Positions 12,790 through 60,400 of a stretch of 64,000 nucleotides of DNA are shown here, in pieces. The translations under genes and the position numbers were made by a program. Under the pieces are notes generated by a model. It saw nothing but the letters and a program-made list of their open reading frames with translations, was not told the DNA's origin and searched no databases. This stretch comes from Azolla caroliniana (lineage: Eukaryota > Plantae > Polypodiophyta), in assembly GCA_043228905.1 (NCBI GenBank), contig JBHGNT010000006.1, forward strand, positions 12,028,001 through 12,092,000, in the 5' to 3' direction. How positions within the stretch are numbered: position 1 is the stretch's first letter; every line of letters begins with the position of its first letter.

Positions 12790-12812
12790 AAGGCGGCAGA
12801 GGAATAGAAAAT

Positions 12813-25917: not shown

Positions 25918-26622
25918 TGTATATATTACAAGGTCCGTCTAGATTCTTTAATTGCCAAAATTAATTGCTCCTATTCCCATATAATTTGTGTATGTGCCTC
26001 AGCTCTCCTCTGCTCAACTACGCCCTTAATTTGATGCCTACCCTACCCTGGGATTCCTTCTACCAAGTGCTAATTCCAGCATGTACTTCTTCTTCTGCCC
26101 AAACCACCTATCCATTTTTCCTTCAAAGTCTGACCCCTTCCTTGCTATATATACACACACACACACACACACATAACTAACTCTCTTATGATCCTATAAA
26201 TCTACTGCTCTGCATCAATTAAGCTCCTCCTCCTACTGCGACTACTACTAACACAAATCAATCTGCTATGGAAGTGTACTTGCACTTTGCTTGATATCAG
26301 TCCTTTCAGAGAGGTGCTACTGAATCTGTTATTAAGTCCTCAGGAATAGTTAACTAAATTAATTAATTTGTGTCAGTCACTATTGCCGAGTGTCCTCTAC
26401 AGGATACTGGTTCATCTTAGAACTATACTAATTATTGTTACTTATTTTGAATTGTGACTTGGTAATCTTCTATACTGCCTCTTCCAAGCACTGCTGAAGA
26501 AGCTCTCCATTAATCCTTCCATAAGCCTACATGGGTATTACAGATCCCCTACCATAAGTGCCTCTCAAGGAAATACTAAAATTTTCGACCCCAAACAAAT
26601 AAACATCTAATAAGTTAAAATC

Positions 26623-28616
26623 ATGGGTGGAGGTCGTGAAGGGGGTGGGCAAGTTAACAGTAGCAAAATGAGTTCTGCAATGGCTCTAGTAGTGAGTTCC
26701 CGAAGAATCATGGCAAGCGCAAGCAGTAGTAGTAGTACTACTACTAGCAACACTGCAACAAATTCTTCGGGAACAGGAACTGTGACCCCTCAGAAACGCC
26801 GCTCATTGGCCGAGTGTGTGAGTGGCGGCACCACCACCACCTCTTCCTCTAACTCCTCCTCTGCCCACAACCACCAGAGAGGCAGCTCACCACATAACAA
26901 ATACTCTCTCCACAAACGGCCCCGCACAAGCTGGGGCAAACCTCACTCCAACCCGTCTCTCCTCCTCTGTTCCCCTTTACTATCCTCCACCCACACCAAC
27001 TCCCCTCCACCCACACCAACCGATCATGATCGCCAATCCTTCTCCAATTCACACTTCATCGTTCCCACTACTCCTTCCTCCGTTTTCTTCGTTAAAACTG
27101 AACCCCTGCAAAACCTCGCTGTCTTTAGACTGCCTGGCTACACTGACCAAACCTATGGTGATTTCGAAGATGACTTCGACGAGCCTCGGCTTCACCAAGT
27201 TCCTTCATTCTTCCCTATCGAGCATCTCCTCCTTGACATGAGTGGCCAAAATAATGCACACACCTCGGCTGCTCTTCCTCTTTCACCCACTTCACCAGGC
27301 TGCTTTCCACCATCACTTTCTGGTTCGGCATGTGTCTCCACTAGCTCACCCATATCACCTCTCTCTGTATCCGCTGCCAGCTCTCCAATCTACTCCTCTG
27401 CCACTGATGAGTATAGCATTTCTGGTGATTTGAGGTGGCCGGAGGGCACCAATTGCCTCGAGGATGAATCATGTGATTTCCTGAGCGATCGCTTCTATGA
27501 GATCGAGACAGAGATGAGATGCATCATGGGTGAGAGTGCATCCTTGGATCATCATCATGACCATGAACATGATCTAATCACTGAGCTGCCAAACACTTTG
27601 ATTGGTTCGGCACAGTGTGTAGTGAAATTGGTGGTGCCCAAGCTTGAGGAGGTAGCTCCAGGTGATTATAGCCAGAGCACAAGTGCGATCTGGGAGTTGA
27701 GCAGCACAAGCCGGACAACACAAGAATCCGATGAAGAGTATCGAATCGATCTCACAGATTTTGAGCTGGAACAGGGTGACTCTGGTAGTGAGCTCAACGA
27801 TATTTACGAGCAAAAACCATCCGTGAGCAATGCTGGAAAGCTGGCACTGATGCTAAACTATGAGGACGTGATCAATGCGTGGTCAGATCGAGGGCCACCA
27901 TTTTCAGGTACAAGTTGGCCAGAGACCACAGCATCACCAGAGGAGGTAGAGCTAGATTTGGCGGTGAGTACTAAAGACTAACTTGTTAAATCCAATCTTT
28001 GAACATTAAAACTTCAACCATAAATTATAAAATGTACACTCTATGCTAGACCTTAGAACCTAAACCCTAATAACGAACGCATAAACTAAGTCCTAAAACT
28101 AAACACCCTATATGAAAACCTAGGACCTAAAAGTACCCTACACCTCACACTTAACCTTAAACTAGATCTGGATCAATACGTCAATGACGATACGATTGAT
28201 GCTGTAGGCATGGGAGCCTGAGAATCAACTAATAGCAGCAGCTCAAAGCTTCGACATGAGCTTGAATGTGGCAGGGACGATGATACAGCTGCCAGAAGCC
28301 GGTGGAGCTTTGGCAGTGATGCTCATGGAGGGTGGCGGAGATCACCCACCCACACCAACATCCGCAGTACGTCAGGCAAGCGTGCTTCGCTACCGTGAGA
28401 AGCGGCGGACTCGACTCTTCTCAAAGAAGATTCGTTATGAAGTTCGCAAACTCAATGCGGAGAGAAGACCTCGCATGAAGGTATTAAATGGTTGCAAATA
28501 AGTTCTTCTGATGGATTCATTCGCACCTCCATTGTTTCTATATGAATCAAACATCAAAGCCTAAATACATTTTGGCTTCGCAGGGGCGCTTTATCAAGAG
28601 GTCTTCCCTCGACTGA
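26623..28616 (+). CDS. CCT-domain transcription regulator, CIA2/CIL-like (no B-box); exons 26623-27963, 28208-28480, 28584-28616; ~548 aa
   Basis: Ser-rich N-terminus, [16 protein letters not shown] motif, CCT domain [37 protein letters not shown]|GRFIKR. Introns GTGAGT...TGTAG and GTATT...CGCAG are both phase 0 and keep the frame. Confidence 0.9.
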
Positions 28617-33914: not shown

Positions 33915-34176
33915 GATGTAAATGCCACCCCTTTACCACGACTACTGCAAGCATGACACGGACGATTGTCATCTTCGTGATAGACGCAAAGGTCTCATCA
34001 TAGTCGATGCCATGTTGCTGTGCGTAACCCTTCGCCACATACTGGGATGTAAATGCCACCCCTTTACCACGGCTATTGCAAGCATGACACAGACGATTGT
34101 CATCTTCGTGATAGATGCAAAGGTCTCATCATAGTCGATGCCATGTTGCTATGCGTAACCCTTCGCCACATACCGG
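33915..34176. repeat. 131-bp tandem duplication inside the Copia RT
   Basis: Units 33915-34045 and 34046-34176 both start GATGTAAATGCCACCCC and differ by a few transitions. Confidence 0.9.
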
Positions 34177-34611
34177 GCCTTGTAGCGGTTGACAGAGCCA
34201 TCGGTGTTGTACTTGACCTTGTACACCCACCTGCATCCAATCGGCTTTACACCCTTCGGAGCGTCAACCAGGTCCTAGGTTTCATTTTCCGCTAATGCGT
34301 GCATCTCTTCCTCCATTGCGGCATGCCAAGTTGCGTCCTCCACTGCTTCTGTGTAGCTCTCCAGCTCACACATTTCTGCCACTCACGTCATGTACGCATA
34401 ATGATGCGCCATGTACTCATTGTATCCAAACCGCACCACGAGGTTCTTTTGGCGCGTAGATCGGCGTAATTGCTCATTAGCCGATTTTGAGGCCCTCTCG
34501 GCCGACGCGGACTTTGTTTTCAAAGGTCCGTCTTCGTTCTTCTCTAAGTTAGATTCACTTCGATCTGACTCCTCTTTATCGGTGCCGTTGTCGTGGAAAT
34601 CCGTGTGTGCG

Positions 34612-36073: not shown

Positions 36074-38579
36074 TGACGACACCGTACTTCGGCATCTTCT
36101 TCTTTCCCTTCTCTTCGCGCATAAGCTGTGTCCTAGACTTCCGATGCGGGGATTGCACGACCGAGTCTCCACTACTCGCCAACTTTGCGTTTGATTGGTC
36201 ATGCTGACTCGGTCACTCATTCAGCCCACTTAGCCTGAATGAGATCAGACTCTCTTCAGGAGCTCCGATGTTTGCTTCATCCCGAGGCATTTTAGCCTCG
36301 CTGACCTCTTCGTCAGAGATCGGAATGGAGTCGTCAGGGGTTGGAGGCGAGGGCAAGTACCACCACGCAGACTCGTCAAACACAACATCACGACTTACGT
36401 GAGCTTGTTTGGTTCGGGGGTTATAACACTTTTAACCCTTCAGTTCGTCGAGTAGCCAACCAAGATACACTTCTTGGCTTTGGCGTCCAGCGTCCTCCAT
36501 TTCCCCTTCGGCACATGCACATACGTGATGCTACCGAAAACCCTCAAGTGTGCCAAGTTCGGCTTCTTCTTGAAGTACAACTCATGTGGAAACACTCCTC
36601 CATTGGTAGATGCCCAATTCTGGAGGTAGACGACTGTTCTGATCACTTTGGCCCAATAGAACTTTGGCAGATGCTTCTCTTCAAGCATTGCCCTTCCCGC
36701 CTCCTCTATCGTCTGATTCTTCCTCTCGGCCACATTGTTCTGCTATGGCATGTATCTAAACCAGAATTCGCGTCGAATTCCCTCCTTTTGTAGATATCTC
36801 GAGAATTGGTTGGAGAAGTACTCCTTCCCACCATCGGACCTTAGGCACTTGATCTTTCTCCTAGTTTCCCTTTCCGCAAGGCTCTTTACTAGTAGGAAAC
36901 ACGCGAAGACATCTCTCTTTTTCGTGATCAAGTATGCCCAAGTGTGCCGAGTGAAGTCCTCGATGAAGGTTACGAAGTAACAACTTCCTCCGATGCTCAC
37001 GTTCTATGCCGGTACCCATACATTGGAATGCATCACATCGAGCGTATTTCGACTCCGATTACGCTCGTTGGGGAATGGAAGTCGACTCCAACAGATCACC
37101 GATAATCCATGACTGATGCATTTGCCAACGAGATTCGAAATAGTCTACAAAATCCCTCCAAGTTGCTCAAAAGGAGATGGACCTTGACCACTTCACCATA
37201 CAAGATGGTTTGTTATTCCACGATCATCTCTTATATGTCTCGGGGGGCTTGTGTCGCACCCGAGTATTGCGGGAATGCCACGATGACCCCCTTGCAGGTC
37301 ACTTCAGAGTTGCAAAAACCCTCGAGCTAATCTCTCGGGGGTACTAGTGGCCAAAACCATGGAAGTTGGTCAAAGAATACATCAAGACTTGTGAGGTTTG
37401 TGGTCGCTCCAAAGTGGCTCATCATTGCCCATATGGCTTGGTTCACCCGCTTCCATGTCCTAGTCGTCCCAGGGCCTCTATCTCTAGGACCTCATAACTG
37501 ATCTACCCTTGGTCAATAGCTATGACTCAGTGTTGGTCGTTGTTGATTGGTTTACAAAGATGGCTCACTTCACTCCATGCTCAAAAACCATTTCCAGCAA
37601 AGGAATGGCGCATCTACTCCTCAATAATGTCGTATGTTTTCATGGCCTCCCTGATGATGTCATCTCTGATCGCGGACCCCAATTTGTCTCTCACTTCTAG
37701 CAGCGCCTTCTGCAAACTTTAGGCATCTTGGTCAAGTTTTCCTCCGCCTATCACCCTCAGACTGACGGTAAGACGGAGTGCGTCAACCAAATCCTTGACC
37801 AATCACATTTGCTAACCCTTCGGCAGAGGGTTGAGCCCGGGTTTTAGAAGAGCTACATCATGACTTATCCTTGGAGCTTCGTCTCGTTGGTGAACAATAC
37901 AAGAAGCACGTCGATCGCCATCGCTCTGTGACTCCCCCCTTTGCCGTTGGCGACATGGTCTGGTGGTTATGATGGCACATCCCTACTACCCGTCCATGTG
38001 TGAAATTTGATTATAAGAAGTTGGAACCATTCTATATAGTTGAGCGCATTAATTCCATCGCCTTGTTGTCTGCCGGAATAGTAACCGATGGACAGAAGCA
38101 AAGAAGTATTATAATATAGTAAAAGCGTAAGAAACGTATGTAACGGTTCATGCAGGAAGCGTGAACGGCTAAAAGACCCTGTGTATATAAAGGGCAGATA
38201 TCCTCTATAAGAGGTAGTGTGTAATTTTGGTGCATAGAGCGTTATTTTAATAGAGTACTATCTTCTCTGATTTCTGTGCATATCTGTGGTTGATCTATTG
38301 TGTTCTTTGATTCTCGGCCACGTATTGTAATTGTAAGGGCGTAGGCGTAAGTGCGGTTACTAGTGCACTATCTAAGGAGTTCGGTTGTAGCCGTCTCCCT
38401 TATACACTACTAGGATACAGGGAAGTATCCCATTATGTATTACGGTACGACGATACCATTCTTTGCAACGTAGTCACCTTGAGGTCTAGGTTGAAGGACT
38501 GACCGTAGACCGTGTTCCTAATCAGTAACACTTTTGGCACGCAGACTGGTGATCTGTGTCTTCTCACAGATGAACAACG

Positions 38580-41500
38580 ACGAATGGATGTTTAGCCGTA
38601 GACGTCCCAAACAAGACCGACCAATCACAAGGTCCATCACACGCTAGGCAGAGGAGCGCGCAAGGTAAAAACCTCGCCTCAGTGACCTCAATGATATCTG
38701 TCAGGACCACAAAGTCGATTTCCCGCTCAACAAATACCTCGGCGACAAGCAGGAAGTTCGCTCACCACATAAGCATTCTGGTCTTTCCCTGCCCACCGTA
38801 GCGTCCAACATGGCTTTCTCTTATCCCCGGTTCAACGGCGAAACAGACGCTGCAACCCACATTCGCTTGTTCCTGAATGTCTGGAATGCAAATCACATGG
38901 CGCAGAGACTTCTCGAAGAGGTAGCACACTAGTCCAAAATGACAGATTTCAGATTAACTTTGGATGGGAGAGCGGCATTTTGGCATTCGCAGATGGATCT
39001 GCTAGCAATCACGACCTGCGACTAGCTGCAGTCGGCGTTTCTGCGTTTCTTCTATCAGAGAATGCCGTAACGCGAAATCCTCGGGCAGTTCTATACAATC
39101 AAATAGTTGCTGGCCGAGACTGTAGTGGACTTCAATTTATGCTTCCAAAATCTGTAGCGGAAATTAGAATGGGGCCCGACAGAGGACTAGGCTCGGGAGA
39201 CATTTCTGGCAGCTTTACAACGACCGATACGGTCGACGCTCAACAACAATAGTGTGAAAAGAGAAACATTTGATATGGTCATAGAATGAGCGCTACAGCT
39301 CGAGCTGGACGAAGAAGAGGAAAGGTTTTCCATGTCCTCATTACGACAAGCGTTAGCTCAGGACGAGGAACGACATTTTTGCTAGGCAATCCAGTGCATG
39401 ATTTGCCTCAATTCTGGGCATTTCGTAGTGGAATGCAACATGCGAATCCATTGCCCAATCTGTCACTCGAAAGCACTCACGGTCGAGTAGTGTGAGTAAA
39501 ATATGTTGAACAGACCCACGCCCATAGTACGAAGCGTAGAAACACAGCGCTGACGTCGTTGTAATGAGTAAAGGCGCCAAGAAGAACGACCCCGGTATAC
39601 GGATCGGAACCCACGCGATGACCGGCACTACCGAAATCTCTGGAATAACAATGATTCCGAGGAAGAAGACTACCGGGGCAACCATAGATATAATAAAGGA
39701 GGCCGACGCTACGAGAATTACCGTCCGATGAACAAACGTGGCAGCTTCAATGGGTCTCGTGGGAAACATCGTCAGTATCGGGAACAACGGCGGTATGACG
39801 AAAGTTCGGACGATGACTGACACCAGGAGCCGTGAGGGGACCAACAACAACCACCACGAACGCTCAGAAGAATGAACCAAGACCGGGAGGAGCAAGTCAC
39901 ACTTGGGGATAGGAACACACCACCAACTGCCAAGAAAGACAAATCCAACGTCCATTTTTTCGTTTGCCAACAACATGGAAATTACGCCACGCAATGTCCA
40001 CTAAGCAAGGGCAAGGGGCTCATCGTCAATATGATTATGGCGGAAGTTCAGCAAGTTACGACAAGACAGCAAACAAAAAATGTTGATTGGGCCGCGCAAG
40101 ATGAGATACGTCAGACGACCCAAGCATGGGTCGAAAAAGCGAACGCAGCAAATACGGAATGCATGCAGGAGTCCGCGAACAATGTGGGGCCAGTGGAGGA
40201 AGATGTAATATCTCCGGATCCCATATGGCAAGCACTGGCAGGCTGCGAGATAACACTGACCATGGAGAAGCTACTTCAACTAGTCCCACAGTTTCGCCAG
40301 GCCGTAGAGGATCGCATAACGGGCAGACCTAGGGTAAGTGTCTCCGCCAACTTTACGGACACCAGCGTCGGACCAACGGTGGTGGATTACCACAATCCGG
40401 CTATTAAGTTGATATTACACGGTCAGGAAATCACAGGATGCGTAATCGACGACGGCTCTGGCGTCAATGTAATTAGCGCGAATACATTCGAACAATTGAG
40501 AATTTCAGAATGGGAAGCTTGCCCGTTTTGGCTTCGCATGGTGGATACCCGCTCAGTAAGGCCTTTAGAATTAATACGAAAATTAGGCATTATCGTTGGC
40601 GGACATCGCTTCGACATCTCGGTGGTAGTCCTCGCCCTCGACGCCCCAGGAGCGTATCTTATGCTGCTTGGTAGACATTGGCTTCGTTCAGCGAATCTCA
40701 AACAGAGCTGGCAACATAAGTGCATCAGCTTTCGACGCGGACGCACCAAGGTTCACGTACCCACAAGGGAAATGGCGGCACAACCCAAGGGCCTAACACC
40801 GTTATATGTGGAAGATATAAATATGTTGGTTGGGGTGGATGATATAGAATTAGCAGTATACCTCGACGAGCACCCCCAAATCTTTCCGCTATTCGAAATC
40901 GACGTCATAGAAACCGCGGCGGAGTATGCCACGCCCACTGCGCTCCACGATGAGGCTTACGAACCAGACCTAGAGTCAATTTTAGAATTAAGCAGAGCAT
41001 GGGCGTAGTTTGAGAGGGAAATGGAAATTTCACGACGAGTCGCTGCCTCAGCCCTAGAAGAAGTAAACGTCGGTACGACGTCAGACCCTAATTCCTCTCC
41101 ATCGCAAAAGAATTACTGCCGGATCAGAGAGAGGTGATGATAGCACTACTCAGGAAGTATAAAGATGTGTTCGCTTGGTCCCATGAGGATATGAAGGGAT
41201 TAGATCCGAAGTTCTATCAACATAAGATCAATTTAGTGACCGATGCGAAACTGGTCCAGCAACGTCCATACCGCATGAACCCAAATTATGTGGCTCACGT
41301 AAAAGAGGAAATTGACAAACTCCTCAAGGCCGGATTCATTCGACTAGTCAAACAAGCTACATGGCTAAGCCCGATAGTAGTCGTACCAAAGAAAAATGAC
41401 AAAATACGTGTGTGCGTGGACTACCGAAAATTGAACGTCGTAACCATTACAGGCGCGTTCCCTTTACCTTTCACCGACAGCGTACTGGATGCTGTCGTAG

Positions 41501-43763
41501 GGCATGACATGTACAACTTTTTAGATGACTTCAGTGGGTACAATCAAGTACGCATGCACCCCAACGACCAAGAGAAGATGACGTTTGTCATAGACTAGGG
41601 AATCTATGTCGCGGTCGTCATGATGTTTGGGCTAAAGACGGTGCCGGCTACATTTCAACGGACAATCACGGGAATTTTTGGGGAATATATAACTGCCTTC
41701 ATGCAGGTCTTTTTACATGATTTTGCGGTATATGGGACAGGAGCCGAACATTTTACGCATCTACAGCTTTGCCCGGAGTGTTGCCGAACTGCATGCTTAA
41801 GCCTAAATCCCGCCAAATGCGCCTTTGGCGTCACCAATGGGGCCCTCCTCGGCCACCTAGTTAGTAAGGAGGCGATAGCGGTCGATCCGAACAAAATCTC
41901 CGTGATTACTCATGCAAAAACACCGACAAACGCGAAAGTACTCAGCCGGTTTTTGGGACAAATACAATGGCACAACCGGATGATACGCTATTTGGCGGAT
42001 TTCGCCACACCATTACATGTCGTTGTTCACCGTACTCCTTTTAAATGGACAACAATGGAGGAGAAGGCGTATGATGCACTAAAAATAATGCTAACGTAGG
42101 AACCAGTGTACAGCCACTAGTTTGGGCGAAACCATTTCACGTGTTTGTGGATGCCTCAGATATAGCGATAGGTAGTGCGCTGATGCAACTCACAAAGCCG
42201 AATTGGTACTGACCAGTGTACTATGCTAGTCAGAAACTATCAAAGGCTGAGCGTAACTATTCCACAACGGAACGTGAAGCGTTGGGTATGATATACAACA
42301 TCAATAAATTAGGGCATTATCTGCTAGGGCAAAAATTCACGTTTCACGTGGATCATACGACATTGCTATATCTGGTGGGGAAACAGGTACTGACGGGAAA
42401 ATTGGCTAGATGGATGTTGTTGCTCCAAGAATTTGACTTTGTAATTCAACACTGACCAGGTACGCAACACGTGGTGGCGGATTTCTTGAGCAGACTAGAT
42501 AATGGAGAAATGGCGCAAAAAGATGACGATAATTTCCGGACGTGGACATTCTGCGTATAGCAACTTTAGTAGCAAGAACAGAAAAGACTTTTCCGGATCG
42601 GTGGTTGATGGAAATGACCTACTTTCTAACCACAGGGTTACCGCCACCAAAATTAAGGACGGACGAGAAAAAACGGCTAGCCGTACGGAGTCGTAATTTC
42701 TATTTAGTTGAAGACGTCCTATATCACAAAGGCAGTGACGACATTTGGAGGCGCGGAATACAGCAGGATGAGAAGGCAACGGTTTTATGTGAAGCCCACT
42801 ATGGTATGGCGGGAGGACATTATGCGGGCGATGTTACGGCTCGAAAAATCTGGCAAGCAGGACTTTGGTGGCTGACTACGCAAAAAGATGCGTATGAATA
42901 TTGCAAACAGTGCGATTTATGCCAACGGATGGGCCAATCCACGGAAGTTGCGAGAATGCCACATCAATTGGTGTTGCCGTTGGATCCTTTCCAAAAGTGG
43001 GGGCTGGATTTTGTGGGACCCTTTACCCCGACAACTGCTCGAACAGGCAATAAGTATATCCTGGTGGCTATGGATTACTGCACCAAGTGGGTAGAAGCGA
43101 AAGCACTATGCGAAAATACCGCGGCAGTCACGACGAAATTCCTTTGCGAACATATCTGGTGTCGTTTTGGCTGCCCTATCGAGCTCATTAGTGTCCAAGG
43201 GAGTTCCTTTTTGAATACAGTCATCCGTAAACTAACCCAACACTACGCTGTGGTTCACAAAAAGAGTACGCCGTATTACCCATAGGCAAATGGCTTGGCC
43301 GAATCCACGAACAAAACATTACAAACTATCCTAAAAAAGATAGTCAATGAGAACAGTACGAGACCGGCTGCTAGAGGGCAAATCTGAACAAATGCGACTA
43401 CAACAATTGCTAGAACTAGGCATAACCCGGGTACGCAGTATGGCCATATTGGAACAAGAACAACGGTGGCGCAAAGCATTCGTGGACCGACATTGGCATG
43501 CGCGTGAAAAGGATTTTATGGTCAGGAAGGCGGTATTAGTTTTTCAAACACACATGGGGCAAATGCTAGGAAAATTAAGATTCCACTGGACAGGCCCATA
43601 CTTGATAGTTGGAGCGGAAAATGACACGTTTCAACTTGGCACCTTGGCCGGAGAGGTGCTCCGGCAAAAGGTGAATGGGTTTTGCTTAAAACCCTACCTG
43701 GGGCCTAAGACACTTAACTCGTTCCCCGCCGAACAGGACAAAGCCAGCGAATCCGTGGAGTAA
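38580..43763 (+). pseudogene. G3 gag-pol, degenerate
   Basis: ORF pieces 39872-41008 (knuckle remnant + PR), 41134-42099 (RT), 42216-42455 (RH), 42542-43763 (INT). Start coordinate approximate. Confidence 0.88.
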
Positions 43764-43820
43764 GTATAGGGCTCTACTTGTACTGTAGTGTACAAATAAT
43801 ATTGTATGTAACTGTTATGA

Positions 43821-43890
43821 AAGAAGAAGAAGAAGAAGAAGAAGAAGAAGAAGAAGAAGAAGAAGAAGAAGAAGAAGAAGAAGAAGAAGA
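43821..43890. repeat. (GAA)n microsatellite, about 23 units, between pol and the extra ORF of G3
   Basis: Directly visible. Confidence 0.95.
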
Positions 43891-45203
43891 TAGCGACGCT
43901 ATTAAAAGGACTTGATGCATGCACAAACTTCTAGAGCAAGAACACACGACACCACGATGGCTCACAGACCAATGAACCCTAGGCCACAAAAAGAAGAAAA
44001 TAGAAGGTTTTCTGCACAGTACAGAAACCAACCTTCTAACTCTCATCGCTCTCATCACTCCCCTCACTCACCTTCCTCTCCATCCTACCATAGAGCCCAA
44101 GTTCGCCATAACCAACATACCTCACCCACTATCCACGAGTCTCACCCTCCTACGGTGCCGATCCCTATTTCCTGCCACCTTGCGTAGATGGCTCGTCGAG
44201 AAGCGTCTGGATGGATACATCAAAGTCGCCGAGGTACCCACTCATCTTAAAGCCCTGGACATCGTCAAGAAACTCAATATAGACACGGTCACCAACTCAT
44301 CAATTCGGAAGAAGCTTGACCTATCATCGTTCGGAGAAAGACATTTTGACATTCCTCCAGCGGAAACCTTGTAGAGATATTTTGAGGCATATTCAGCGTC
44401 CGCCAAGGCATACAGGACGAAGGAAATCCCCGATCCCTTCTTCTGCGAAATAGCCAAGTTCTTGTTGGAAGTCGGATGCTTGCATGTAAATTGCCTATGG
44501 GATGCCAAAACAGAAGGCATGCAGCATCATTGATACCTTCGAAGGGCGCGCGGTCGATTAGGGGGTCATTACGGGACCAATGTTACAGGAAGGCCTGCAC
44601 GCGTATCAAGGCGGCAAAAAGCTAAGGCCGATCATACAATAGTATCTGATGATACTATTCCCACCCCAGGGTCTGCCTGCACCACAACCCAGCAAGCCCA
44701 CACCGCCGCCACGTTTTGCGAAACGGAGGTTAGCGGAATTGGTCACCAAAAAATGGGAGGATGAACCCCAATCGGCCCAACCCAGCATGCGGACAACACA
44801 TGAAGAATGGCCGGAGCGCAGGGAAGAAGCCCCGCAGGAGCAGGAAGCCGAGCAACGTCAGGAAAGCCCGAGGTTGAAACGGCAGAGGTTGGACAGGAAA
44901 GATGGGCGCGGATTAGTTAAAGACACACTAGCGGCCGTAGCTACGGAGCCCAACACCACTTTCGAAATAATCCGGGAACCACGACCGATCATTATGGCCC
45001 AGTCTCAGCGGGGGAAGGCGTATTTACAGCAGAAAGCGAGTTCCTGAAGTATCCGGATATTCCGGACACAGGCCACGAGTTCGGTGCACTATTACAGTTC
45101 GGCACTACTTACGAACTCATGGAATTTTTGGCAACACAACAAATAAAAGTCTCACAACGAATGGCCGAGGAGCACGCGGAGCAACAAATGATTGAGTGCA
45201 CGT

Positions 45204-48200
45204 TGTCGTGAAGAAAACCGTCCACAAGCGGAATCGGTGCACCGGAGCGTAGGAACCGGCTCTTCATGCACGTACACCTTATGTTGTACATAAGAGAGAA
45301 TTAGGTACATAGAAGATCCTAGGTAGGTAGATTCGGTAGGTAGGAAGTTAATGGGAAACAGCTCCTTTCTTGCCTATAAAAGGAGGGAGACGGGGAGGAG
45401 GAAAAGGGGGGATCGCGGTTAGAGAAGACGAAGTGCTGTCGGGTTGTCGGCCGAAGGCTTCTCTCTCTTCCATACTCCGTAGCTTCTTCTTGTGCAGGTT
45501 TTCGGGGAGGCTCGCGCTGCTCTGAGGAATGCCCAAGTGCTTCCGGCAGCACCTCCAACCTACTCCTTTCTTTCTGAGTGTTTACGAACAGGCATCGACA
45601 TCTGTTCGCCGGCCTTTTCGGTTGTAACCGACTTCGGGCTTCTTGTTGTTTGTCCTTGTTAATATATATATACATACATTCGTGTCTCTCTGCGTCGGTG
45701 TCCCACTCGCGTCTTTGTGTCGAAGGGCCGTGTCCCTGTGAATCTACGCCCACACGTAGTGGGTCCCTTCCCTTCTCCTTTGTCTCTTGCTCTTCGGTAC
45801 AAGACCCCCGAGCCCCCGCCTCATTCCACGCATCCATGAGGAATACCTCGACATCTTGGTGAACCCGACGTGAAAGAGGCGGCAGAAGAGCAGAAGATGA
45901 AGGGGTCGGATCTTGCGGAGGCCATGGCTTCGGCCGTGGATCGGATATTGAGCGCACGCAAGGGCACCGACGCCCTCTATAGAGCCATTGAGGTGGTCGT
46001 CGGTACGATTGGCCGGTTCAGCGGAAAGGATGCCACGAAGTATTTGGCGTCCTACGGGGCAGAAATGTTGATGCGGGGCATTCCGGAAGAGAGGCGTCTT
46101 GCCAGGTTCCCTCGAGTGGCGATGCCGAGCATCCATGCGGAGGTGCTCGAGGTACGGGTGGAGAGCCGTACCTGGGAGGAGTTCGAAGGCCGACTCCTAG
46201 AAAAATACGGGCTGGATGACGCGCTCCGGCTTGCGAAACGGGACTTCATGGAATGGGTGGAGTCCCCCCCGGCAAGGGAAGAAACGCGTCGGCACTCCTC
46301 CGGGAGTTTGAGGAACGCTTTGCGCGCCTTTCGGCGCTTGACCGAACCGTTCTGGATACGAGCCGGGTCCTACTGTTCGTCAAGTCGGTGGACGAGCGGG
46401 ACCGGGATCAAGTCGGCTCCTTGCTGGAAACCAAAGACGGGCTGACGACCGACTGGACTGCGGTTAAGAGAGTCTGTGGCCGTTTCGACAAACGGCGAGA
46501 ATGGGCTGATAACGGGGCGGCCGGTGCGGGCTCTGTCACAGCAAGGAGGCTTGAACCGGCCCCGCAAGGGCGAAGGGAAGAGACCCGGGAGTGGCTCGAA
46601 ACCGGTTCGGCTTCGACCGGCATGGTCAATGGCTCGTCCGGAAGAGCAGCGCTGGAGGAGTTGACGTGGGCGATAAAGGATCTCCAGATCGCCCAGGCTC
46701 GAAGGGAAGGCGGCGAACCGGCTCGTGACCAGCACTTCTTTGTGCAGGAGACGTCCTCGCACCCGGTCATATTAGGGGATCCATACATCACGGCGGCGCG
46801 GATGGAGAACAAGCTGCTAGACAACGGTTTGGCCTACGTGAGGGTCAAAAGCCAGGACGGGCGCCATTCGGTCCAATTTCTGACGGTGCGACCGAACCAC
46901 GAGAGAAACCGCGAATCCCTCGGTGGTGAGAACCGGGAGGTTTTTTAGAGAGGGCTGCCAAGGCATGGGGCCGAGACAGTCCGGACACTCGGGAAAGACC
47001 CCACAACTGTACGATAGAACCGAAACCGAAGAAACCTTGTACGATAGGTAGAAAATTTTTCTTCTCCAACGACGGTGGGTGTATGATAGTCGGCATCGTT
47101 GGCCGAGAAAAGGCAAGGGCGGAGGAGCGACTTCGAGCGTGCGGAGTTCTCGGCCCGGACGAGGAAATCAGCGGAGCCGTGGAGGTGGTCTCCTTCGACG
47201 ACACCTTGGGGATACTGAGGGAGGTAGCTGGAGAAGACCTTAACGAAGACCGGACGATACCGGTATGTTCTGAAGAGATGTACGAAGTCATCGCGAACTT
47301 CAGTCAGGGGCTCGGGTCGGATCGGACGGCCCGGGTTAGCACGAAGTACAAGACTGTGGACCGGAAGGTAAGGCCAGTCGCAGCACCCTTACCGGAGGGC
47401 AGCGAGTCCCGGATCAGAGGGGTTGCGACGGACCCCAGTTTGCGAGATCTGGTCTGCATAGGACACACCTTCACCGACGGGACGCTCTGGGAGCTCAAAA
47501 TCGGTGGGGGCGGGTTCCTACTGCCAGCGGAGGAAGACCGGTTTCGGAGAATGCTCGGAAGGCACGGGAAAGCCTTCGCATTCTCACCATAAGAGATCGG
47601 GTGCGTAGACTCGACAATCCTGGAGCCGATGGTGATATTCACGGTACCGCATGTGCCGTGGAATCTCAAGCCGATTCCAGTACCGAGAGCTCACATCCTG
47701 AAGTTGATGGAGCTATTGAGGTAGAAAGTCGATATGGGCATTCTCGAACCGTCGAGTGCCCCATACTCGAACCGGTGGTTTACCGTACCAAAGAAAAACG
47801 GAACATTGCGCTTCATTCGAGACCTGTAGCTGGTCAACAGAGTGACCATTCGGAACGCAGGAATCAGACCGACCATAGACGAGTTCGCGGAGGCCTTCGC
47901 CGGAAGGTCGATTTACTCGGTCGGTGACCTGTACTCGGGGTACGACCAGTTCCAGCTAGCCGTTGAGAGCAGAGACATTACGACCATGCGAACTCCCCTT
48001 GGCCTAGTGCGAATGTGTACCCTGCCACAAGGAGGGACCAATTCGGTGGCCCACATGGTGAATGCAATGAACAAGGTACTGAGGGATTGCATCCCGGACA
48101 TCACCATGCCATTTCTAGACGACATCCCGATCAAGGGGTGCCCGGTGGAAGAGAAGGACGAGACACTCGGGCCGGACGGATGCCGACGATTCGTGGCAAC

Positions 48201-51165
48201 ACACATCGACGACTGTGAGAAGGTGCTACGAGGGCTAGAGGTTGCGAGGCTCACCTTCTCCGGGGAGAAATCGGCCTTCGGTCAATCAGAAATCCTGGTG
48301 GTCGGACACCTATGTGGACCATATGGCCGGAAGCCGTCCCCGGCAAAGGTAGAAGCCATCTCCGCGATGAAGACCGACTGTAGCTCGGTTACGGAAGTTC
48401 GGAGGTTCCTGGGGGCGTGCGCATTCTACCACATATGGATCCCGCATTACGCCCACGTTGCGGAGCCGCTATACGGGTTGCTGAAGAAGGGGCGAAAATT
48501 CGAGTGGCGAGACGAGCACACAGAGTCGGTCCGGAAGCTGAAGGAAGCTCTTGCGGCAGCACCGGCGCTCCGGAAGGCTGTCTACGAGAAGGGTACCCCG
48601 GTATACGTAACGGTGGATACGAGTCCGACCGGGATCGGATGGGTCATCAACCAAGAAGACGAGGACGGCATTCGGTTCCTGATCCGATTCGGCGCAAAGG
48701 TCCTCAGTGAGCGACAACGAGGGTACGCCCGGGTTAAACGCGAACTCTAGGGTATCGTTTCGGCAGTAAAGGCCGACAAAGACTACTTGATCGGGACAGA
48801 AGTGATTATCGAGACGGATTGCCTGCCAATTCTCGGCATGGTCTCCGGATGCGCGACACCGGACCTGGCGATGCTCAGGTGGATAGCGTACATCAAGTCC
48901 TTGGACCCGGAAATACGACACATTTCCGGAAAGGACAACGCCATGGCCGACATGCTTTCGAGGGCGAGGTTTGATGACGAGGGCGTCATGGTTTCGGAGG
49001 ACGAAGAAGTCGGCGTGGACTTCTTCGAGGCGGCGAACGTGACGACCGATGGGGCGAGCACTCCGGCACTTAACGGCTTCGACGAGAGCAAGTACGACGG
49101 CGAGTGGCTACAGATCGGTGGTATTTTGAGGACAATGACGCCGGATGCGTCATGGACGAGGGACGAGGCCAACCAGATCCGGAAGAAAGCATACCGATTC
49201 TTTCTCCGGGACGGATACTTATGGAAGCACCCAAAGAAGAGGAACGACGTCCCGCTCCGGGTGGTGGAGATGAAGGAAGAACAAGAGGAGCTGCTGACGG
49301 CCTACCACGACAGCCCTTGGGCTGGACACCGTGGAACGTGGGCCACGTTCGAGAAGATAAAGGGGAAGTACTGGTGGCCGGGACTGTACCAGGACGTGCA
49401 TCGGTTCGTGACAACTTGCGAGAGCTGTCAGATGCACTCCATAGTCCGACATCGGGACGAGCTTCACCATACGTACCCTCCGACCATCCACTTCAAATGG
49501 ATGGTAGATCTGGTGACGATGCCGATGGGAGTAGGACAGATGCAGTATCTGGTTCTGGCTCGGGAAGATCTGACGAACTAGGTGGAAGGCCGAGCCCTTC
49601 AGAACAAAACGACCGCGGCCGTATGTCGGTTCCTGATCGAGGACGTGATATGCCGGTACGGGTGCGTCGGGAAGATCGTGGCTGATCGCGGGGAGTTGGA
49701 CGCCGAAGAGGCCGAGGAGCTGTTCGACCGGCTAGGAGTCAAGCTGTCGCTTACCACTGCGTACAATCCGGAGGCGAATGGGAAGGTGGAGCACGGACAC
49801 GGACCGATCGTCAAGGCGTTAGTTAGGGCATGCGGAGGTCAAGTCGGGAACTGGCCGCGGCTGCTGCCTTACGCGTTGTGGGCTGACCGAAGTACGCACA
49901 ATTCGGTAACCGGATTCATGCCGGCAGAGCTCTTGTTTGGGCAGAAGCCGATCATGCCGATGGAACGTACAATCTCCTCATGGGCAGCCGTGGATTGGAG
50001 AGACGAGATGAGCCGGGAGGAACTGTTGGCGGCGCGCATACGACAGCTCGAGCGAAGACCGGAGGACGTGGAGCAGGCTGCGGGAAAGCTTCGGGTGGCA
50101 AGGACGAGGAACAAAGCCCGGTTCGATAGGACGCACCGGCTCCGACCAAAGAAGATTGAGGAAGGCGACTGGGTGCTAGTCTACGACATCAGCCTCGACA
50201 ACCAGCACCGAGCGACACGGAAGTTCGCAAGAAGGTGGTTCGGGCCTTACGTGGTACAAAGCGCCAACGACAACGGGACGTACCATCTGGCAGAACTTGA
50301 CGGCACGAGAATGGCGATACCGGTAGCTGGGAAGCGGATCAAAGCGTTCAAGAAGTGTCACGACGACGAGCCGGATCCGGTTAACCTGGACCGCGACGAC
50401 GAACGATCCGAAACCGAGGAAGAACCGACGGGCGGGGAATGAAGGCTGGACCGGTTTTCTCCGTCCCAACTCAATTTGGCGCATGCCGGTGGATGCGCGG
50501 TTAGGTGGGGGCGGATGTCATGAAGAAAACCGTCCACAAGCGGAATTGGTGCACCGGAGCGTAGGAACCGGCTCTTCATGCACGTACGCCTTATGTTGTA
50601 CATAAGAGAGAATTAGGTACATAGAAGATCCTAGGTAGGTAGATTCGGTAGGTAGGAAGTTAATGGGAAACGGCTCCTTTCTTGCCTATAAAAGGAGGGA
50701 GACGGGGAGGAGGAAAAGGGGGGATCGCGGTTAGAGAAGACGAAGTGCTGTCGGGTTGTCGGCCGAAGGCTTCTCTCTCTTCCATACTCCGTAGCTTCTT
50801 CCTGTGTAGGTTTTCGGGGAGGCTCGTGCTGCTCTGAGGAATGCCCAAGTGCTTCCGGCAGCACCTCCAACCTACTCCTTTCTTTCTGAGCGTTTACGAA
50901 CAGGCATCGGCATCTGGTCGCCGGCCTGTTCGGTTGTAACCGACTTCGGGCTTCTTGTTGTTTGTCCTTGTTAATATATATATACATACATTCGTGTCTC
51001 TCTGCGTCGGTGTCCCACTCACGTCTTTGTGTCGAAGGGCCGTGTCCCTGTGAATCTACGCCCACATGTAGTGGGTCCCTTCCCTTCTCCTTTGTCTCTT
51101 GCTCTTCAGTACAAGACCCCTGAGGCCCCGCCTCATTCCACGCATCCGCGAGGAATACCTCGACA
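45204..51165 (+). mobile_element. Gypsy element G2 (relative of G1), internally deleted, nested in G3
   Basis: 650-bp LTRs 45204-45853 and 50516-51165, roughly 3% different by my manual count. TSD ACGT/ACGC, PBS 45857-45874, PPT AGGTGGGGGCGGA. RT DLYSGYDQF / FLDDI, RH and INT colinear with G1. Confidence 0.95.
45857..45874 (+). promoter_or_regulatory. PBS, 18-nt complement of the tRNA-Trp 3' end
   Basis: TGGTGAACCCGACGTGAA, 3 nt after the LTR end. Confidence 0.88.
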
Positions 51166-53922
51166 ACGCTAACACAAACAACGGAAAGCGATGATGAGGG
51201 GCCGCTAGCCAGACTAGGCAGACAACAGAATGTCAGGATACACCGAATGGGAATTGAACTACCCCCATTCAACGCGGCCCTCGTCGAGGTTCATAGGGAA
51301 CTAGCAAAGGTCAGTCTTGGAGTCAAGGATATGGTGATTAAAAATGAAAATTCTGGAAAACGGTTAAACAGACCCAAGCTGAGCTACAAAAGGCCAACGA
51401 ATGCATCACGGAGTTAGAACGTAACGCGACTACGGCACAACAGGCATCTCGACCAATAGACAATGCCGCCGAGGCCTAGTCCCTGAGAGAAGAGGTTGAA
51501 GCACAGACCGCCATTGCCTCGAAAGCAAAGAGGGCCGTGCAGCTGGCGGAATTGGAGATTGACCGCCTCCGCTCTGAACTTCGCCAATCCGCTGACAGAG
51601 AAAAGGACATTCGGGCCAACGGCCGAAAGGCAGTGAAGACCCTTGAAGAGAAACTTATAGCGGAGGCAACACAACACACCTGCGCGAAAGAAGAAAACTC
51701 CAAACTACGGGAGGAAGTGCAGAAATCGGAAACAATGATCACGGGACTCCGGGCGTTATTGGAAAAGAAGAAAGCATGGTTCGATGAGTAGCCTGTACGG
51801 GAACAGGAAAGGCGGCATCAGCTCGAAATCCGCTTGAACAATGAAATGGGAAATCTGGAGGAGTTACATTCGAAGAAATCTCCGCTATGGGCAGGAATGA
51901 GGAGCAATTATGAGGAAGCGGCGGCAGTCAGTAAACAAGAAATCGAAAACCTCAAGAAAACCGTGGAAGAAGCACACAACCGCTGCCAAGCAATAACCGA
52001 CAACGTGTGCATACTTCTTCAAACAAATCGGGAGAGGTTTAGGACGCAATTACAAGCGGCTCTAGAGAAAGGATGGATGGCGTGGGCTGCACAAGTGGCG
52101 GAGTTGCATACTTACCGGTCGGACTGGGAGAACCGAAGAAAAGATGGCTGAGGTTTCTACAAACTCAATGAGGAAAGCATTGCGGCAGTACGCGAGGACC
52201 TAGTGCAGGATTATCACACGCTAGCGGACCAACACTCCGAGGAACTCGCGCAACTACTAGACGATTTTGGCGAAAGTCAGGAGGACATGTTTCACCAAAT
52301 CATGCAAGCCGGCAACACGCGACCAAATGAGGAATCCATCCTGATACCAGTAAAGGATACTGTTGAACGAGAGGAACCTCAACCCACGTCATCGGAAATA
52401 ACCACTACGGTGGGCAGCACAGAACAAGAAGCGGAGCCCCCCACGATACCCGAAAGTGAGACTGCCGAACAGGACGAACCTCAGCCCCATTCACTGGAGC
52501 GTACAACCACGATTGGCAACACGGAGGAAGTTACGGACAGGACAAAGCCTCAACCTCCCGAGAGCCCACAGGTGGATGAGCCAGCTGCAGTAGAATGGGA
52601 GGAGCCAATAGAGCCCGGACCGCCCACACCAGGAGACCTTAACACCATGGAAAGCCCCACCGAGCACGTACAAGACATGGAACCGCGTAACAACGCATCT
52701 ACGGACACTACCCCGTCCCCGGACTAGGACATCAGGGCGGAACCAAACATCCGTGCCATTTTGGAGGAAGATTAAAGGAGTGGGTTTGACGTGCCATGGC
52801 ACTGTCCCATAGGCGTGCCAGGTGTTGTCCGTTGGAATAGTAACCGACGGACAGAAGCGAAGAAGTATTATAATATAGTAAAAGCATAAGAAACGTATGT
52901 AACGGTTCACGCGGGAAGCGTGAATGGCTAAAAGACCCAGTGTATATAAAGGGCATAAATCTTCTGTAAGAGGTAGCGTGTAATTTTGGTGCATAGAGTG
53001 TTATTTTAATAGAGTACTATCTTCTCTAATTTCTGTGCATATCTGTGGTTGATCTACCGTGTTCTTTGATTCTCAGTGACGTATTGTAATCGTAAGGGCG
53101 TAGGTGTAAGTGCAGTTACTAGTGCATTGTCTAAGGAGTTCGGTTGTAGCCATCTCCCTTATACGCTACTAGGATACGGGGAAGTATCCCTTTATGTATT
53201 ACGGTACGATGGTACCATTCTTTGCAACGTAGTCACCTTGAGGTCTAGGTCGAAGGACTGACTATAGACCATGTTCCTAATCGGTAACACGCTTTCCGGC
53301 TAGCCCTTCTGTCCCACTTCCGGATTCATGATGTTTTCATGTCTCCCTCCTCGAGCCCCATTATCCTTCACAAATCCCAGGATGCCAGGCCCCTCCACAA
53401 TCCCCTGTGGAATTGACGACAGGCGAGGAATACGAGGTCGACCAAATACTTGACTCACGTTTGCATCATCGACACCTGCCTCAAGATTTTCATCGCTGAT
53501 ATCCCCACAAACCGGTGACAGGTTTGGGAAGGCGGCGTAGGAGGGGGGATAATGTCACATCTAGGATGTGACTTGAAACTGTGACCTGTGACACACCCAA
53601 TATGTAGTATTAGATAAACCATTTGGAAACCCTTAAGTTATATGTAAGTTTGTATATGGTGCATATTGTACAACATAGCATATAGAATATTCTAGTCTTT
53701 AGTTTATTCTAGAAATATTCTATGGTATATTCTAGATGAGTATATTCTAGAGATATTTCTTAGGTATATTCTAGAGATTTTCAATCTCAAAACTTGTATA
53801 AATATGTGTGTTCATCTATATTATAATCAAGGTGAACAATACCAATTAGGGAGTCTTTCGATTAATCAACTCATCCCTCTGATTATCTTGTACTCTCTTG
53901 TGTATATTTTCTACCCGTGACA

Positions 53923-57574: not shown

Positions 57575-58521
57575 TGTCCTACTTCCGAACCGTGTACTTT
57601 GTGCTCTTACACATACGCTTCCGCACACATATTCTATTACAGCTTCATTGACGATCATAGTCGTAAGTTGTGGGCTTACATGCTAGAGACAAAGGATCAA
57701 GCACTGAGTGTCATCAAGGAGTTCCAGGCTAGAGCCGAGAGAGAAACAGGTCGGAAATTGAAGGCGGTCCGAACGAACAATGGAGGAGAATACCGAGGGT
57801 AATTGAAGAGTACTATCGAACGCAAGGTAGTCGGCTAGAGTACACAGTGTCGAAGACGCCAGAGTTAAACGGTATGGCCAAGAGAATGAACCGTTACGAT
57901 ACCATTATGGAGAGAGTTCGATGTATGTTGGCACATGCCAAGTTGCCGAAGATATATTGGGCCGAGGCGTTGATGACATATGTTTTCATTATAAACAGAT
58001 CTCCCTCAGTTCCATTGGATGGTGACATACCACAAAGGGTATGGTCCAGCAAGGAGGTGTCATGCAAGCATTTGAGAGTGTTTGGTTGCTTGGCCTATGT
58101 GCTTATAACTAAGGACCAGAGGGGGAAACTCGATCCCAAGAGCCGACCGTACCTATTTCTCGGCTATGACGAAGATGAATTCGGCTATTGGCTATGGGAC
58201 CTAATCAACGAAAAGGTGATTAGGAGCAACGATATTGTCTTTATGGAAGAGAAGACAATAGTTGATTGGGAGATTGAAAATAGGTCTCTAGTTGCCGATT
58301 CGAGCCGAGTCGATTGTTATGGCATGACCATATAATATCCCGTGGTAAAATTGTACCGTAGTATTCTATACACATGAATAAAGTACTACGGTACAATTTT
58401 ACCACGGGATATTATATGGCCATGCCCATAACATCGATGATCGGCTCGGTCGATTCGACTGAAATCAGATACGAACCAGTTGGCCAACTCAATAAATGTG
58501 AAAATTGAGAACCGACTAAGG
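57575..58521 (+). mobile_element. Copia integrase fragment, same family as 56107-56594 but inverted
   Basis: FIDDHSRKLW, RTNNGGEY, TPELNGMAKRMN, HLRVFGCLAYV, KLDPKSRP. Confidence 0.88.
58315..58433. mobile_element. 119-bp foldback insertion with TGT...ACA ends and 5-bp TSD
   Basis: TSD TCGAT at 58310-58314 and 58434-58438. Arms of ~55 bp are near-perfect inverted repeats (TGTTATGG...CCATAACA). Confidence 0.9.
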
Positions 58522-60400
58522 TGTTAGGAATATGTCCCTCCTATGGGAGCAACCAATTGGTCGGACTGAAAGCCGACAGTTGAAGACAAGCTAAGAATCG
58601 ACAGTCGGGCTAAGCGTCGACTGTCGAAAACAAGGGAGAGTCAATAGCAGATGATCCAAGTCGAAGATAAGCGCGACTAGTTGAGCTGACCGGAGGGCCA
58701 ATGGACAAGGCCGACTGGACAGTCAACACTGGAGTCGACTAGTCGATCAGTCGGCCGACTAACTATTATTGTTATTTGGTATAATAATAGGAATGATAGT
58801 TGTCGTGGCTACATTTGTAAATAGCCCATAGTGTATAAATACAAATACACTTAGGGAAAACAGAGAATGATATTGAACAATAGATATGTATTAGAGTTTC
58901 TGTAGTTGAGAGTTGTAGAGTGAAGTGAGTGCGTGAGAGAGAGCGATGACAGAGTTTAGTGAACTTGCCAAGAACCCTAAGTGGTTATCCTCTAAATATC
59001 AGCGAAGAGTTGTAACTGGTTCTGTACTCTCTATTGTATAGTGGAAGATCTATGCTCTCGTGGTTTTCCCCGTAAAGGGTTTCCACGTATTTTGTGTGCA
59101 TGGTGCATCTTGTTTATTTGTTGTTTTCTGTTCCGACTTCTGTATTTTCTGCATGTCTTTCTCATGGATATTCGATTTGAGCTCATCAAACTGGTATCAG
59201 AGCTTGAGGTGCAAGCATGGAAGGAGGTGTGAGCGGTTTCCCAAGTATGATAGTTCTAAACTCACAGAAACTACGCAGACTCGAAGATAAAGATGGAAGA
59301 CCTTCTCATAGTCAAAGACCTGTACGAGCCCATCGACTGAGCAGAAATACCCACGGGGGTATTAGAGTCTGAATGGAAATTTCTGAACAAAAAGGCGGTG
59401 TCCACCATCGGACAATGTGTCGACGTAAATGTCCTTCAGCATGTGGCGAATAACACAAATGCCTATGAGATGTGGCATAAACTGTCAGGTCTATATGAGA
59501 GGAAGAACGCCCCCAACAAAACATCATTGATGAGAAAGATTGTGAGGCTGAAATATAGGGACGGAGAAAGCATAGTGGAGCATGTAAGCACATTCATGGG
59601 GTATGCATGCCATCTTGCTACTGCGTACCCTACCAGACAGCTGGGAGAACCTGGTGGTGACTCTCATCACCTCGTGTCAAGAAGAGAACTTGTCCTCACA
59701 AAAGGTAAAAACAAGCATCTTGAACGAGGAGATTGGAAGGACAAGGGTGTCTTAGCCCAGTCGGAGTCAAAGTTGACTCAACATACCGACAGAAGAAGGA
59801 ACCGGCAAAGAAGTCCACTGAGGAGAGAAAAGTCCCAACCAAGATCCAAGTCCAGAGGTAAGCTAACATGCTTCTATTATGGAAATCCTAGACACTTTCA
59901 GAAGAACTGTTGACATATGAGGGAGGACAAAGTTGTCGGTAATGGTGTCGAACCCAGGAAGATTCCTGATGAAAAGGGCACATCAACTGTAGCTACAAGT
60001 GCAGAGGAGATCCTGTTCATTTGTGAATAGGCAACCACAAATCTTGCAAGTGAAGAGTGCACATGGGTGATCGACTCTAGTGCATCATTTCATATAACTC
60101 CGATGAGGGAGTTCTTCTCGACTTATACAACTGGAGACCATGCCTATGTAAAGATGGGAGACAATGGCGAGTGCAAGATAGTCGGCATAGGAAATGTAAG
60201 CCTGATGATGTTGATAGGCTATCGACTGACTTTGAGGGAAGTTCGACATTTCCCCGATATCAGATTGAATCTGATATTCACTAAAAGGCTGGATGATGAA
60301 GGCTATAGTGGTAGCTTCCAAAATGGCAAGTGGAAGTTCTGCCGAGGAAACCTCATAGTGGCCTGAGCGTAGAAAGAAGGCACATTATATATGATGCATG
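58522..60400 (+). mobile_element. Copia 5' part: LTR 58522-59188, Met PBS 59192-59203, gag, protease
   Basis: TGTTAGG...CATCA then TGGTATCAGAGC. Gag AYEMWHKLSGLYE, knuckle remnant CFYYGNPRHFQKNC, PR WVIDSSASFHIT. Confidence 0.9.

What the first reader, a model, noticed from the sequence alone, without database searches (positions are those of the whole stretch)
58310..58438. 119-bp near-perfect palindrome with integrase-type ends (TGT...ACA) and a 5-bp TSD
Seen: almost the whole insertion is one hairpin (~55-bp arms, one indel, about three mismatches), flanked by TCGAT duplications, inside a Copia fragment. Known: common plant MITE classes make TA, TAA/TTA, 8-bp, 9-bp or 2-3-bp TSDs. TG...CA ends with 4-6 bp TSDs are the signature of retroviral-type integrases (LTR elements, Ginger, Polinton). 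Inference: it may be a minimal non-autonomous element moved by an integrase-like enzyme, or a fusion of two identical LTR ends. It is also a likely hairpin small-RNA source.
Basis: partly seen in the sequence, partly recalled or inferred. Interest (0 to 1): 0.72.

Follow-up and report, generated by a model that had tools for sequence, protein, structure and literature searches.

The report
Fern foldback transposon with integrase-type ends
This 119-base hairpin is one short copy of an abundant family of jumping DNA, likely from a fern, whose three fully seen copies all end in TGT...ACA and duplicate five bases of their target, so it is likely moved by an enzyme related to retroviral integrase that has not yet been found.

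Summary
Observation confirmed: 58315-58433 is a 119-bp hairpin (z -16.7) with TGT...ACA ends and a perfect TCGAT duplication, inside the integrase-to-RT linker of a decayed Copia; related Copia copies carry TCGAT once. The host is likely a fern. It is not a one-off: two relatives in metagenome contigs (178 and 261 bp) have the same terminus at both ends and 5-bp duplications (5/5, 4/5). In public DNA runs the terminus is very abundant in three organisms, ends sharply and has diverse flanks. Most family members continue inward for at least about 140 bp, so the 119-bp form is a short derivative of a longer, structurally mixed foldback family. Ends (TGTTA, relatives TGTTACGG) and a 5-bp duplication fit Ginger2/TDD transposons and LTR integrases, and exclude GingerRoot/IS3EU, Ginger1, Mutator, Tourist and Stowaway. 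Best reading: non-autonomous long-TIR DNA transposon moved by an unseen Ginger2/TDD-like transposase (0.5). Rivals: LTR-derived copy-back or integrase-in-trans (0.25), another DDE enzyme (0.2). No coding partner was seen; small RNAs were not testable. Plant 5-bp-TSD foldbacks are known (Arabidopsis Hairpin), so this is a new variant, not a new class.

The parts
58310..58314 (.). left 5-bp target site duplication (TCGAT)
   Evidence: related Copia copies carry the 5-mer once (loose end behind 58288 in X2, 17 contigs, agreement 0.81)
58315..58384 (+). left arm: first 70 bp of the family terminus; the first ~34 bp are the most conserved part
   Evidence: 27-33 of 34-36 columns identical among the six ends of three copies; relatives continue past 58384 into a further shared module (loose ends behind 58384 in X1 and X4, agreement 0.71-0.77)
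58385..58433 (-). right arm: inverted copy of the first 49 bp of the terminus, ending ...ATAACA
58434..58438 (.). right 5-bp target site duplication (TCGAT)
57733..58309 (+). host: decayed Ty1/Copia integrase C-terminal region with SH3-like domain, interrupted by the hairpin
   Evidence: PF25597 E 3.5e-25; translation
58522..59203 (+). neighbour, not part of the element: 5' LTR and primer site of another Copia, followed by gag
   Evidence: TGTTAGG start, primer-site motif at 59192; PF14223 in 59341-59910

Best explanation
The hairpin is a short, non-coding copy of an abundant foldback-type inverted-repeat element, likely of a fern, that inserted into a dead Copia with a 5-bp duplication and is likely cut and pasted by a Ginger2/TDD-like (retroviral-integrase-type) transposase encoded elsewhere. 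Shown: TGTTA...TAACA at both ends and a 5-bp duplication in 3 of 3 complete copies; unrelated target sequences; high abundance of the terminus; a longer shared arm in most members. Inferred: the parent has long TIRs (at least 107 bp in L003, at least about 140 bp in the common form); short forms such as this one arise when the interior is lost or one arm is copied onto the other by template switching or gap repair; an integrase-fold DDE enzyme binds both TGTTA ends, excises the element and joins it to target DNA with a 5-base stagger. The copy has no coding capacity and no sign of a host function; if transcribed it would fold into a long hairpin that could feed small-RNA silencing.
For: Three loci, same terminus at both ends, TSD only at length 5: TCGAT/TCGAT, AAGTC/AAGTC (L001:960-1137), GGTTA/GGTCA (L003:399-659); chance 0.0012, 0.0015, 0.020, and the last two were not picked for a TSD. 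Both true relatives among the 3 metagenome hits are TIR-type, none is a solo LTR. L003 has 107-bp arms at both ends. Contigs laid: 1316, 1387, 1130, 764 in four runs on the window stretch; 1307, 1439, 0, 459 on L003; terminal depth about 7.5e5 in X1 against 30-62 for single pieces; sharp edge at the terminus with flank agreement only 0.35-0.48. Ginger ends follow TGTNR, TIRs 45-297 bp, TDD-4/5 make 5-bp TSDs, and a 252-bp non-autonomous Ginger2 exists (PMC2836005). An insect Ginger2 MITE TIR begins with the same 8 bases as the relatives' end, TGTTACGG (PMC3845634 Table 1).
Against: No transposase or full-length parent was seen. Animal Ginger2 makes 4-bp TSDs at AT-rich RTATAY sites; the three targets here show no such preference. 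No Ginger2/TDD in land plants turned up in the papers read, and GingerRoot is reported absent from ferns. Ginger1 families are described as low in copy number. The three copies differ in length and inner layout (119, 178, 261 bp), unlike a homogeneous MITE family. A recurring minority of contigs has TAATCCC right behind the ACA end (4 of 4 runs; X1), i.e. a purine-rich tract before a terminus, as at a PPT-LTR junction. Short-read assemblies favour short copies, so the two relatives may not represent the main form. TGTTAC is also a common LTR start (own knowledge).
Confidence: 0.5

Rival explanations
1. The terminus is one end of an abundant LTR (or TRIM) family. Palindromic copies are copy-back products of reverse transcription, or foldback DNA with two identical att ends, inserted by an LTR retrotransposon integrase.
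For: TG...CA plus 5 bp is the usual LTR signature (window element C: TGTTG...TAACA, CGCCT/CGCTT). Each of the 3 copies has a different inner junction, as one-off products would. Purine-rich tract directly before some termini and at L003:480-506. A Solanaceae 5-bp-TSD 'MITE' (MiS5) was called a misannotated solo LTR (PMC3278479). Unreviewed notes report inverted-LTR insertions elsewhere in this genome.
Against: 2 of 2 true relatives found without regard to structure carry the terminus at both ends. No primer-site-like flank and no joint from the ACA end back into the purine-rich module is listed (9 joints shown). The arm matches none of 4 window LTRs better than shuffles (22-139 of 200 shuffles as good). 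Gap-free near-full-length hairpin pieces at other loci (X4 record 32, 104 bp, 17 differences; 5-11 contigs across 58383) suggest that short forms recur.
Confidence: 0.25
2. It is a foldback MITE of another DDE superfamily that happens to give 5-bp TSDs (hAT5-like, a CMCT/Plavaka variant, a Sola variant, or the unidentified enzyme behind Arabidopsis Hairpin).
For: hAT5 makes 5-bp TSDs, CMCT elements 2-5 bp, and PlavakaA has TGT..ACA ends (PMC12730594). Hairpin is an unclassified 238-bp foldback with a 5-bp TSD (PMC5172404). Unreviewed notes describe abundant Sola-like TIR elements in this genome.
Against: PlavakaA makes 2-bp TSDs, most CMCT ends are CA..TG, hAT5 lies in an animal lineage; Sola makes 4-bp TSDs; Hairpin's TSD is the specific CTWAR, which none of the 3 targets matches.
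Confidence: 0.2
3. The window copy is a local accident (a foldback made during repair of the Copia DNA) or a microRNA gene, not a transposed element.
For: Rfam gives sub-threshold miRNA matches (MIR5512, 70.6 bits against a cut-off of 139). The Copia target region is itself weakly palindromic.
Against: The sequence is unrelated to the host Copia, has dispersed relatives with their own TSDs and very high depth; all Rfam matches are below the gathering score and follow from the long hairpin.
Confidence: 0.03

Closest known systems
Ginger2/TDD DNA transposons (Bao et al. 2010, PMC2836005, passages and Discussion read; Ginger2_NA MITEs, PMC3845634, passages and Table 1 read)
   Same: TGTNR ends, long TIRs, non-autonomous short derivatives; TDD-4/5 give 5-bp TSDs; insect Ginger2_NA TIR starts TGTTACGG like the relatives here.
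   Different: Animal members give 4-bp TSDs at AT-rich sites; not reported from land plants in the papers read; low copy numbers; no transposase seen here.
Arabidopsis Hairpin foldback element (Ade and Belzile 1999; paper not held, seen only as a row in PMC5172404 Table 1 and a mention in PMC3814204)
   Same: Plant, almost wholly palindromic, non-coding, 5-bp TSD, unclassified.
   Different: About 10 copies, 238 bp, TSD specific for CTWAR; here abundant, mixed lengths, no target consensus in 3 sites. Its termini could not be compared.
Solo LTRs and TRIMs of Ty1/Copia and Ty3/Gypsy
   Same: TG...CA ends, 5-bp TSD, integrase chemistry.
   Different: Here the same end stands at both sides in long inverted repeat; no direct-repeat LTR pair and no PBS in 3 copies.
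GingerRoot/IS3EU (PMC6839031, PMC10045372, passages read)
   Same: Integrase-related TIR elements of non-seed plants.
   Different: 6-bp TSD, mostly TA..TA ends, reported absent from ferns.

Membership tests
MITE / non-autonomous TIR element | short, non-coding, TIRs, TSD | tested here: met
   119, 178, 261 bp; TIRs and 5-bp TSDs; no ORF of its own
MITE / non-autonomous TIR element | high copy number | tested here: met
   terminal depth about 7.5e5 against 30-62 for single pieces in X1; summed contig depth is no copy count, so only 'many, likely thousands' is claimed
MITE / non-autonomous TIR element | homogeneous size and structure | tested here: not met
   3 copies, 3 layouts; many low-depth joints
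Ginger2/TDD | TGTNR termini and TIRs of about 45-300 bp | tested here: met
   TGTTA at all 6 ends; 107-bp arms in L003
Ginger2/TDD | TSD 4 bp (animals) or 5 bp (TDD-4/5) | tested here: met
   5 bp in 3 of 3, the TDD value
Ginger2/TDD | AT-rich RTATAY target preference (animal Ginger2) | tested here: not met
   targets TCGAT, AAGTC, GGTTA
Ginger2/TDD | HHCC + DDE integrase-like transposase between the TIRs, no RT | not testable with these tools
Ginger1 | 4-bp CCGG/CCGT TSD | tested here: not met
GingerRoot/IS3EU | 6-bp TSD, TA..TA termini | tested here: not met
Solo LTR / TRIM | TG...CA ends with 5-bp TSD | tested here: met
Solo LTR / TRIM | two different ends, or two direct LTRs with PBS and PPT | tested here: not met
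   3 of 3 copies carry the same end inverted
Solo LTR / TRIM | terminus adjoins a PPT or PBS in other copies | tested here: inconclusive
   recurring TAATCCC behind the end in a minority of contigs; could be nested inner termini as at L003:516
Arabidopsis Hairpin | TSD CTWAR, uniform 238 bp | tested here: not met
Mutator-type foldback | 7-12 bp TSD | tested here: not met
   lengths 7-10 tested, none match; range from PMC10741241
microRNA gene | Rfam family score at cut-off; precise small-RNA duplex | tested here: inconclusive
   all matches below gathering score; no raw small-RNA reads offered

The most novel reading that the evidence does not exclude
A high-copy fern foldback family that grew out of an LTR end placed twice in inverted orientation and is now moved as DNA by a retrotransposon-type integrase, either borrowed from LTR elements or carried by a newly born plant Ginger-like transposon: the LTR-to-DNA-transposon transition that Bao et al. 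proposed only as a hypothesis.
Probability: 0.15. Interest if true: 0.82.

Novelty: new variant of a known kind. Interest (0 to 1): 0.5.

Why it matters
If the partner is a Ginger2/TDD-like transposase, it would place that superfamily in ferns, where the related GingerRoot was reported absent, and show that an integrase-type enzyme, thought to excise poorly, can drive a very abundant non-autonomous family. If the partner is an LTR integrase, it would be a case of inverted-repeat DNA hitch-hiking on retrotransposon machinery. Either way the family supplies a defined end sequence with which the enzyme can be found in one genome search. If another DDE enzyme is responsible, it is an unclassified fern foldback MITE of modest interest, useful for annotation and as a likely source of hairpin small RNAs in introns.

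Tried and rejected
No whole genome is held and the relatives' records are not searchable, so copy counts and long copies could not be read directly. No second copy and no other TGT...ACA element with a 14-bp TIR and 4-6 bp TSD in the window except one simple-repeat hit; the inner module seen is absent from the window (0 matches). Viral contigs: 0 hits with two patterns. Of 4 pattern hits, 2 were dropped as chance: L002 and L004 match only the 20-24 bases of the pattern. No RNA holder listed; this says nothing on expression. Nothing was laid from run X8 (organism C); no proof of absence. The arm is not similar to the four window LTRs. Earlier notes by sequence: none; by words and near: none. 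Literature searches gave no description of this family or of a fern Ginger2/TDD; 'MITE' does not occur in the main text of one fern genome paper (PMC6786969, passages; supplements not opened, they may list repeat families). PMC12810828 (passages) was not relevant. The Hairpin and MiS5 primary papers could not be read. Repbase and Dfam could not be searched. I did not search for fern Ginger-like proteins: no seed sequence was available from a tool and a hit could not have been tied to these ends. The Atlas gave no result for a neighbouring ORF.

Full report
Observation. The element is 58315-58433 (119 bp), TGTTAT...ATAACA, between two TCGAT copies. The arms pair over about 53 bp with one bulge and few mismatches; the fold is far beyond chance (z -16.65, 0 of 200 shuffles). 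Among duplication lengths 2-10 only 5 fits. It interrupts a Copia ORF just after the integrase SH3-like domain. A different Copia LTR starts at 58522.

It is an insertion. Contigs of related Copia copies follow the window up to 58314 and leave it there (table 8: 5 listed pieces end at 58314). In run X2, 17 contigs diverging at 58288 read on through a single TCGAT followed by GCTC, matching the GATC that follows the right duplication in the window. One X2 contig joins 58314 to 58449 (letters between not known), a probable empty site. Pieces across the left junction occur in X1, X3 and X4 (organism A), so the insertion is not an assembly artefact.

Host. The methionine gamma-lyase at 6257-7921 groups with Adiantum and three unnamed proteins (100/99) apart from lycophyte, liverwort and seed-plant sequences (31 of 121 proteins used): likely a fern.

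Relatives. One exact 20-mer scan of metagenome contigs gave 3 loci and one of prokaryote genomes 1 locus. L002 and L004 match only the pattern and were dropped. L001:960-1137 (178 bp) and L003:399-659 (261 bp) carry the same terminus at both ends, with AAGTC/AAGTC and GGTTA/GGTCA duplications (chance 0.0015 and 0.020). L001 lies 3' of an acetyltransferase exon that ends at a GT donor (PF00583 E 4.5e-4), likely in an intron. The first 34 bases of the six ends agree at 27-33 positions. The three copies differ inside: the window copy is 70 bp of terminus plus an inverted 49 bp; L003 has 107-bp arms around an inner partial terminus; L001 is a patchwork of both orientations with short shared letters at the joins (my reading of the printed sequence).

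Abundance and main form. On the window stretch, 764-1387 contigs per run were laid in 4 of 4 runs; summed depth is 2e5-4e5 over most of the arms in X1 and falls to 63 just right of the element. On L003:505-680, contigs were laid in 3 of 4 runs (organisms A, B, D; none in C), with about 7.5e5 on the terminal 36 bp against 30-62 for single pieces in X1. The tool warns that this is no copy number; I infer only that termini are very many, likely thousands. Loose ends at the terminus have agreement 0.35-0.48 (unrelated flanks); loose ends on the inner side agree at 0.71-0.89 and show that the common form runs on through a purine-rich module and a further module, an arm of at least about 140 bp. What lies beyond was not seen. 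Depth across the window's own junction is small (375 at 58383 against 63,897 at 58377 in X1), so the 119-bp layout is a minor form, though 5-11 contigs per run with a variant there and a gap-free 104-bp piece with 17 differences (X4 record 32) suggest that similar short hairpins exist elsewhere. Both window arms share letters that about 83-84% of the family depth lacks (58351, 58353), so one arm was likely copied from the other or the copy comes from a small subfamily.

How it likely works. Shown: identical ends in inverted orientation, a fixed 5-bp stagger, unrelated targets, no coding capacity. Inferred: a trans-acting DDE enzyme recognises the TGTTA ends. TG...CA ends with 4-6 bp duplications mark the retroviral-integrase group (PMC10045372, passages). 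Within it, Ginger1 (4 bp, CCGG/CCGT) and GingerRoot/IS3EU (6 bp, TA..TA) fail; Ginger2/TDD (TGTNR, TIRs 45-297 bp, 5 bp in TDD-4/5; PMC2836005) and LTR integrases remain. An insect Ginger2 MITE TIR shares its first 8 bases with the relatives' end (PMC3845634), which is suggestive only. Long TIRs at both ends of L003 and 2 of 2 unselected relatives being TIR-type favour a DNA transposon (0.5). Long-TIR elements are known to yield foldback derivatives by gap repair, microhomology joining and template switching (PMC3814204, passages).

Results against this reading. No transposase was seen; the targets lack the Ginger2 AT-rich preference; the copies are heterogeneous; a minority of contigs has a purine-rich tract directly before the terminus (TAATCCC behind the ACA end in 4 of 4 runs and in X1), which could be a PPT-LTR junction or nested inner termini like L003:516; short-read assemblies favour short copies; and a Solanaceae 5-bp-TSD 'MITE' was reinterpreted as a solo LTR (PMC3278479, passage). 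Unreviewed notes on this genome describe inverted-LTR insertions; I did not test them. Hence 0.25 for an LTR origin. hAT5, CMCT/Plavaka (PMC12730594, passages) and the unknown enzyme of Arabidopsis Hairpin keep 0.2.

Comparison and novelty. It works like a foldback MITE; it is not a homogeneous MITE family, and it cannot be filed as Ginger2/TDD until a coding parent is found. A plant foldback with a 5-bp TSD is already on record (Hairpin; seen only in PMC5172404 Table 1), but with about 10 copies and a specific target. Ten full-text searches showed no description of this family or of a fern Ginger2/TDD; Repbase, Dfam and subscription journals were not searchable. GingerRoot is reported absent from ferns (PMC6839031, passages). 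Verdict: real, abundant, new variant of a known kind; interest 0.5, rising if the partner proves to be a plant Ginger2/TDD enzyme or an LTR integrase.

Noticed in passing
window 12077-19022 and 45204-51165: Two related Gypsy elements have 4-bp, not 5-bp, target duplications: CCGG/CCGG and ACGT/ACGC. CCGG is also the Ginger1 target in PMC2836005.
   Followed up: partly
window 38064-53289: LTR element C (TGTTG...TAACA, TSD CGCCT/CGCTT) contains the Gypsy at 45204-51165 as a nested insertion.
   Followed up: partly
window 58522-59910: A second Copia (5' LTR, primer site at 59192, gag) starts 84 bp after the hairpin inside the same decayed Copia; relatives of this LTR are preceded by a GGGGGATT tract in the runs.
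   Followed up: partly
window 291-2410 (-): Two ORFs without Pfam hit; one has a CX2CX4HX4C knuckle and looks like a LINE ORF1 (recalled resemblance).
   Followed up: no
window 6257-7921 (+): Intronless methionine gamma-lyase ORF on a long branch among fern sequences.
   Followed up: yes
window 26614-27981 (+): 455-aa ORF without Pfam hit whose end resembles the region before a CCT domain in CONSTANS-like proteins (recalled).
   Followed up: no
window 33915-34177, 24586-24652, 11190-11233: A 132-bp tandem duplication (95%) and two small imperfect palindromes, unrelated to the element.
   Followed up: no
L003:399-659 and L001:960-1137: Family members hold inner copies of their own terminus (L003:516, L001 near 1060), which suggests self-insertion or template switching within the family.
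   Followed up: partly
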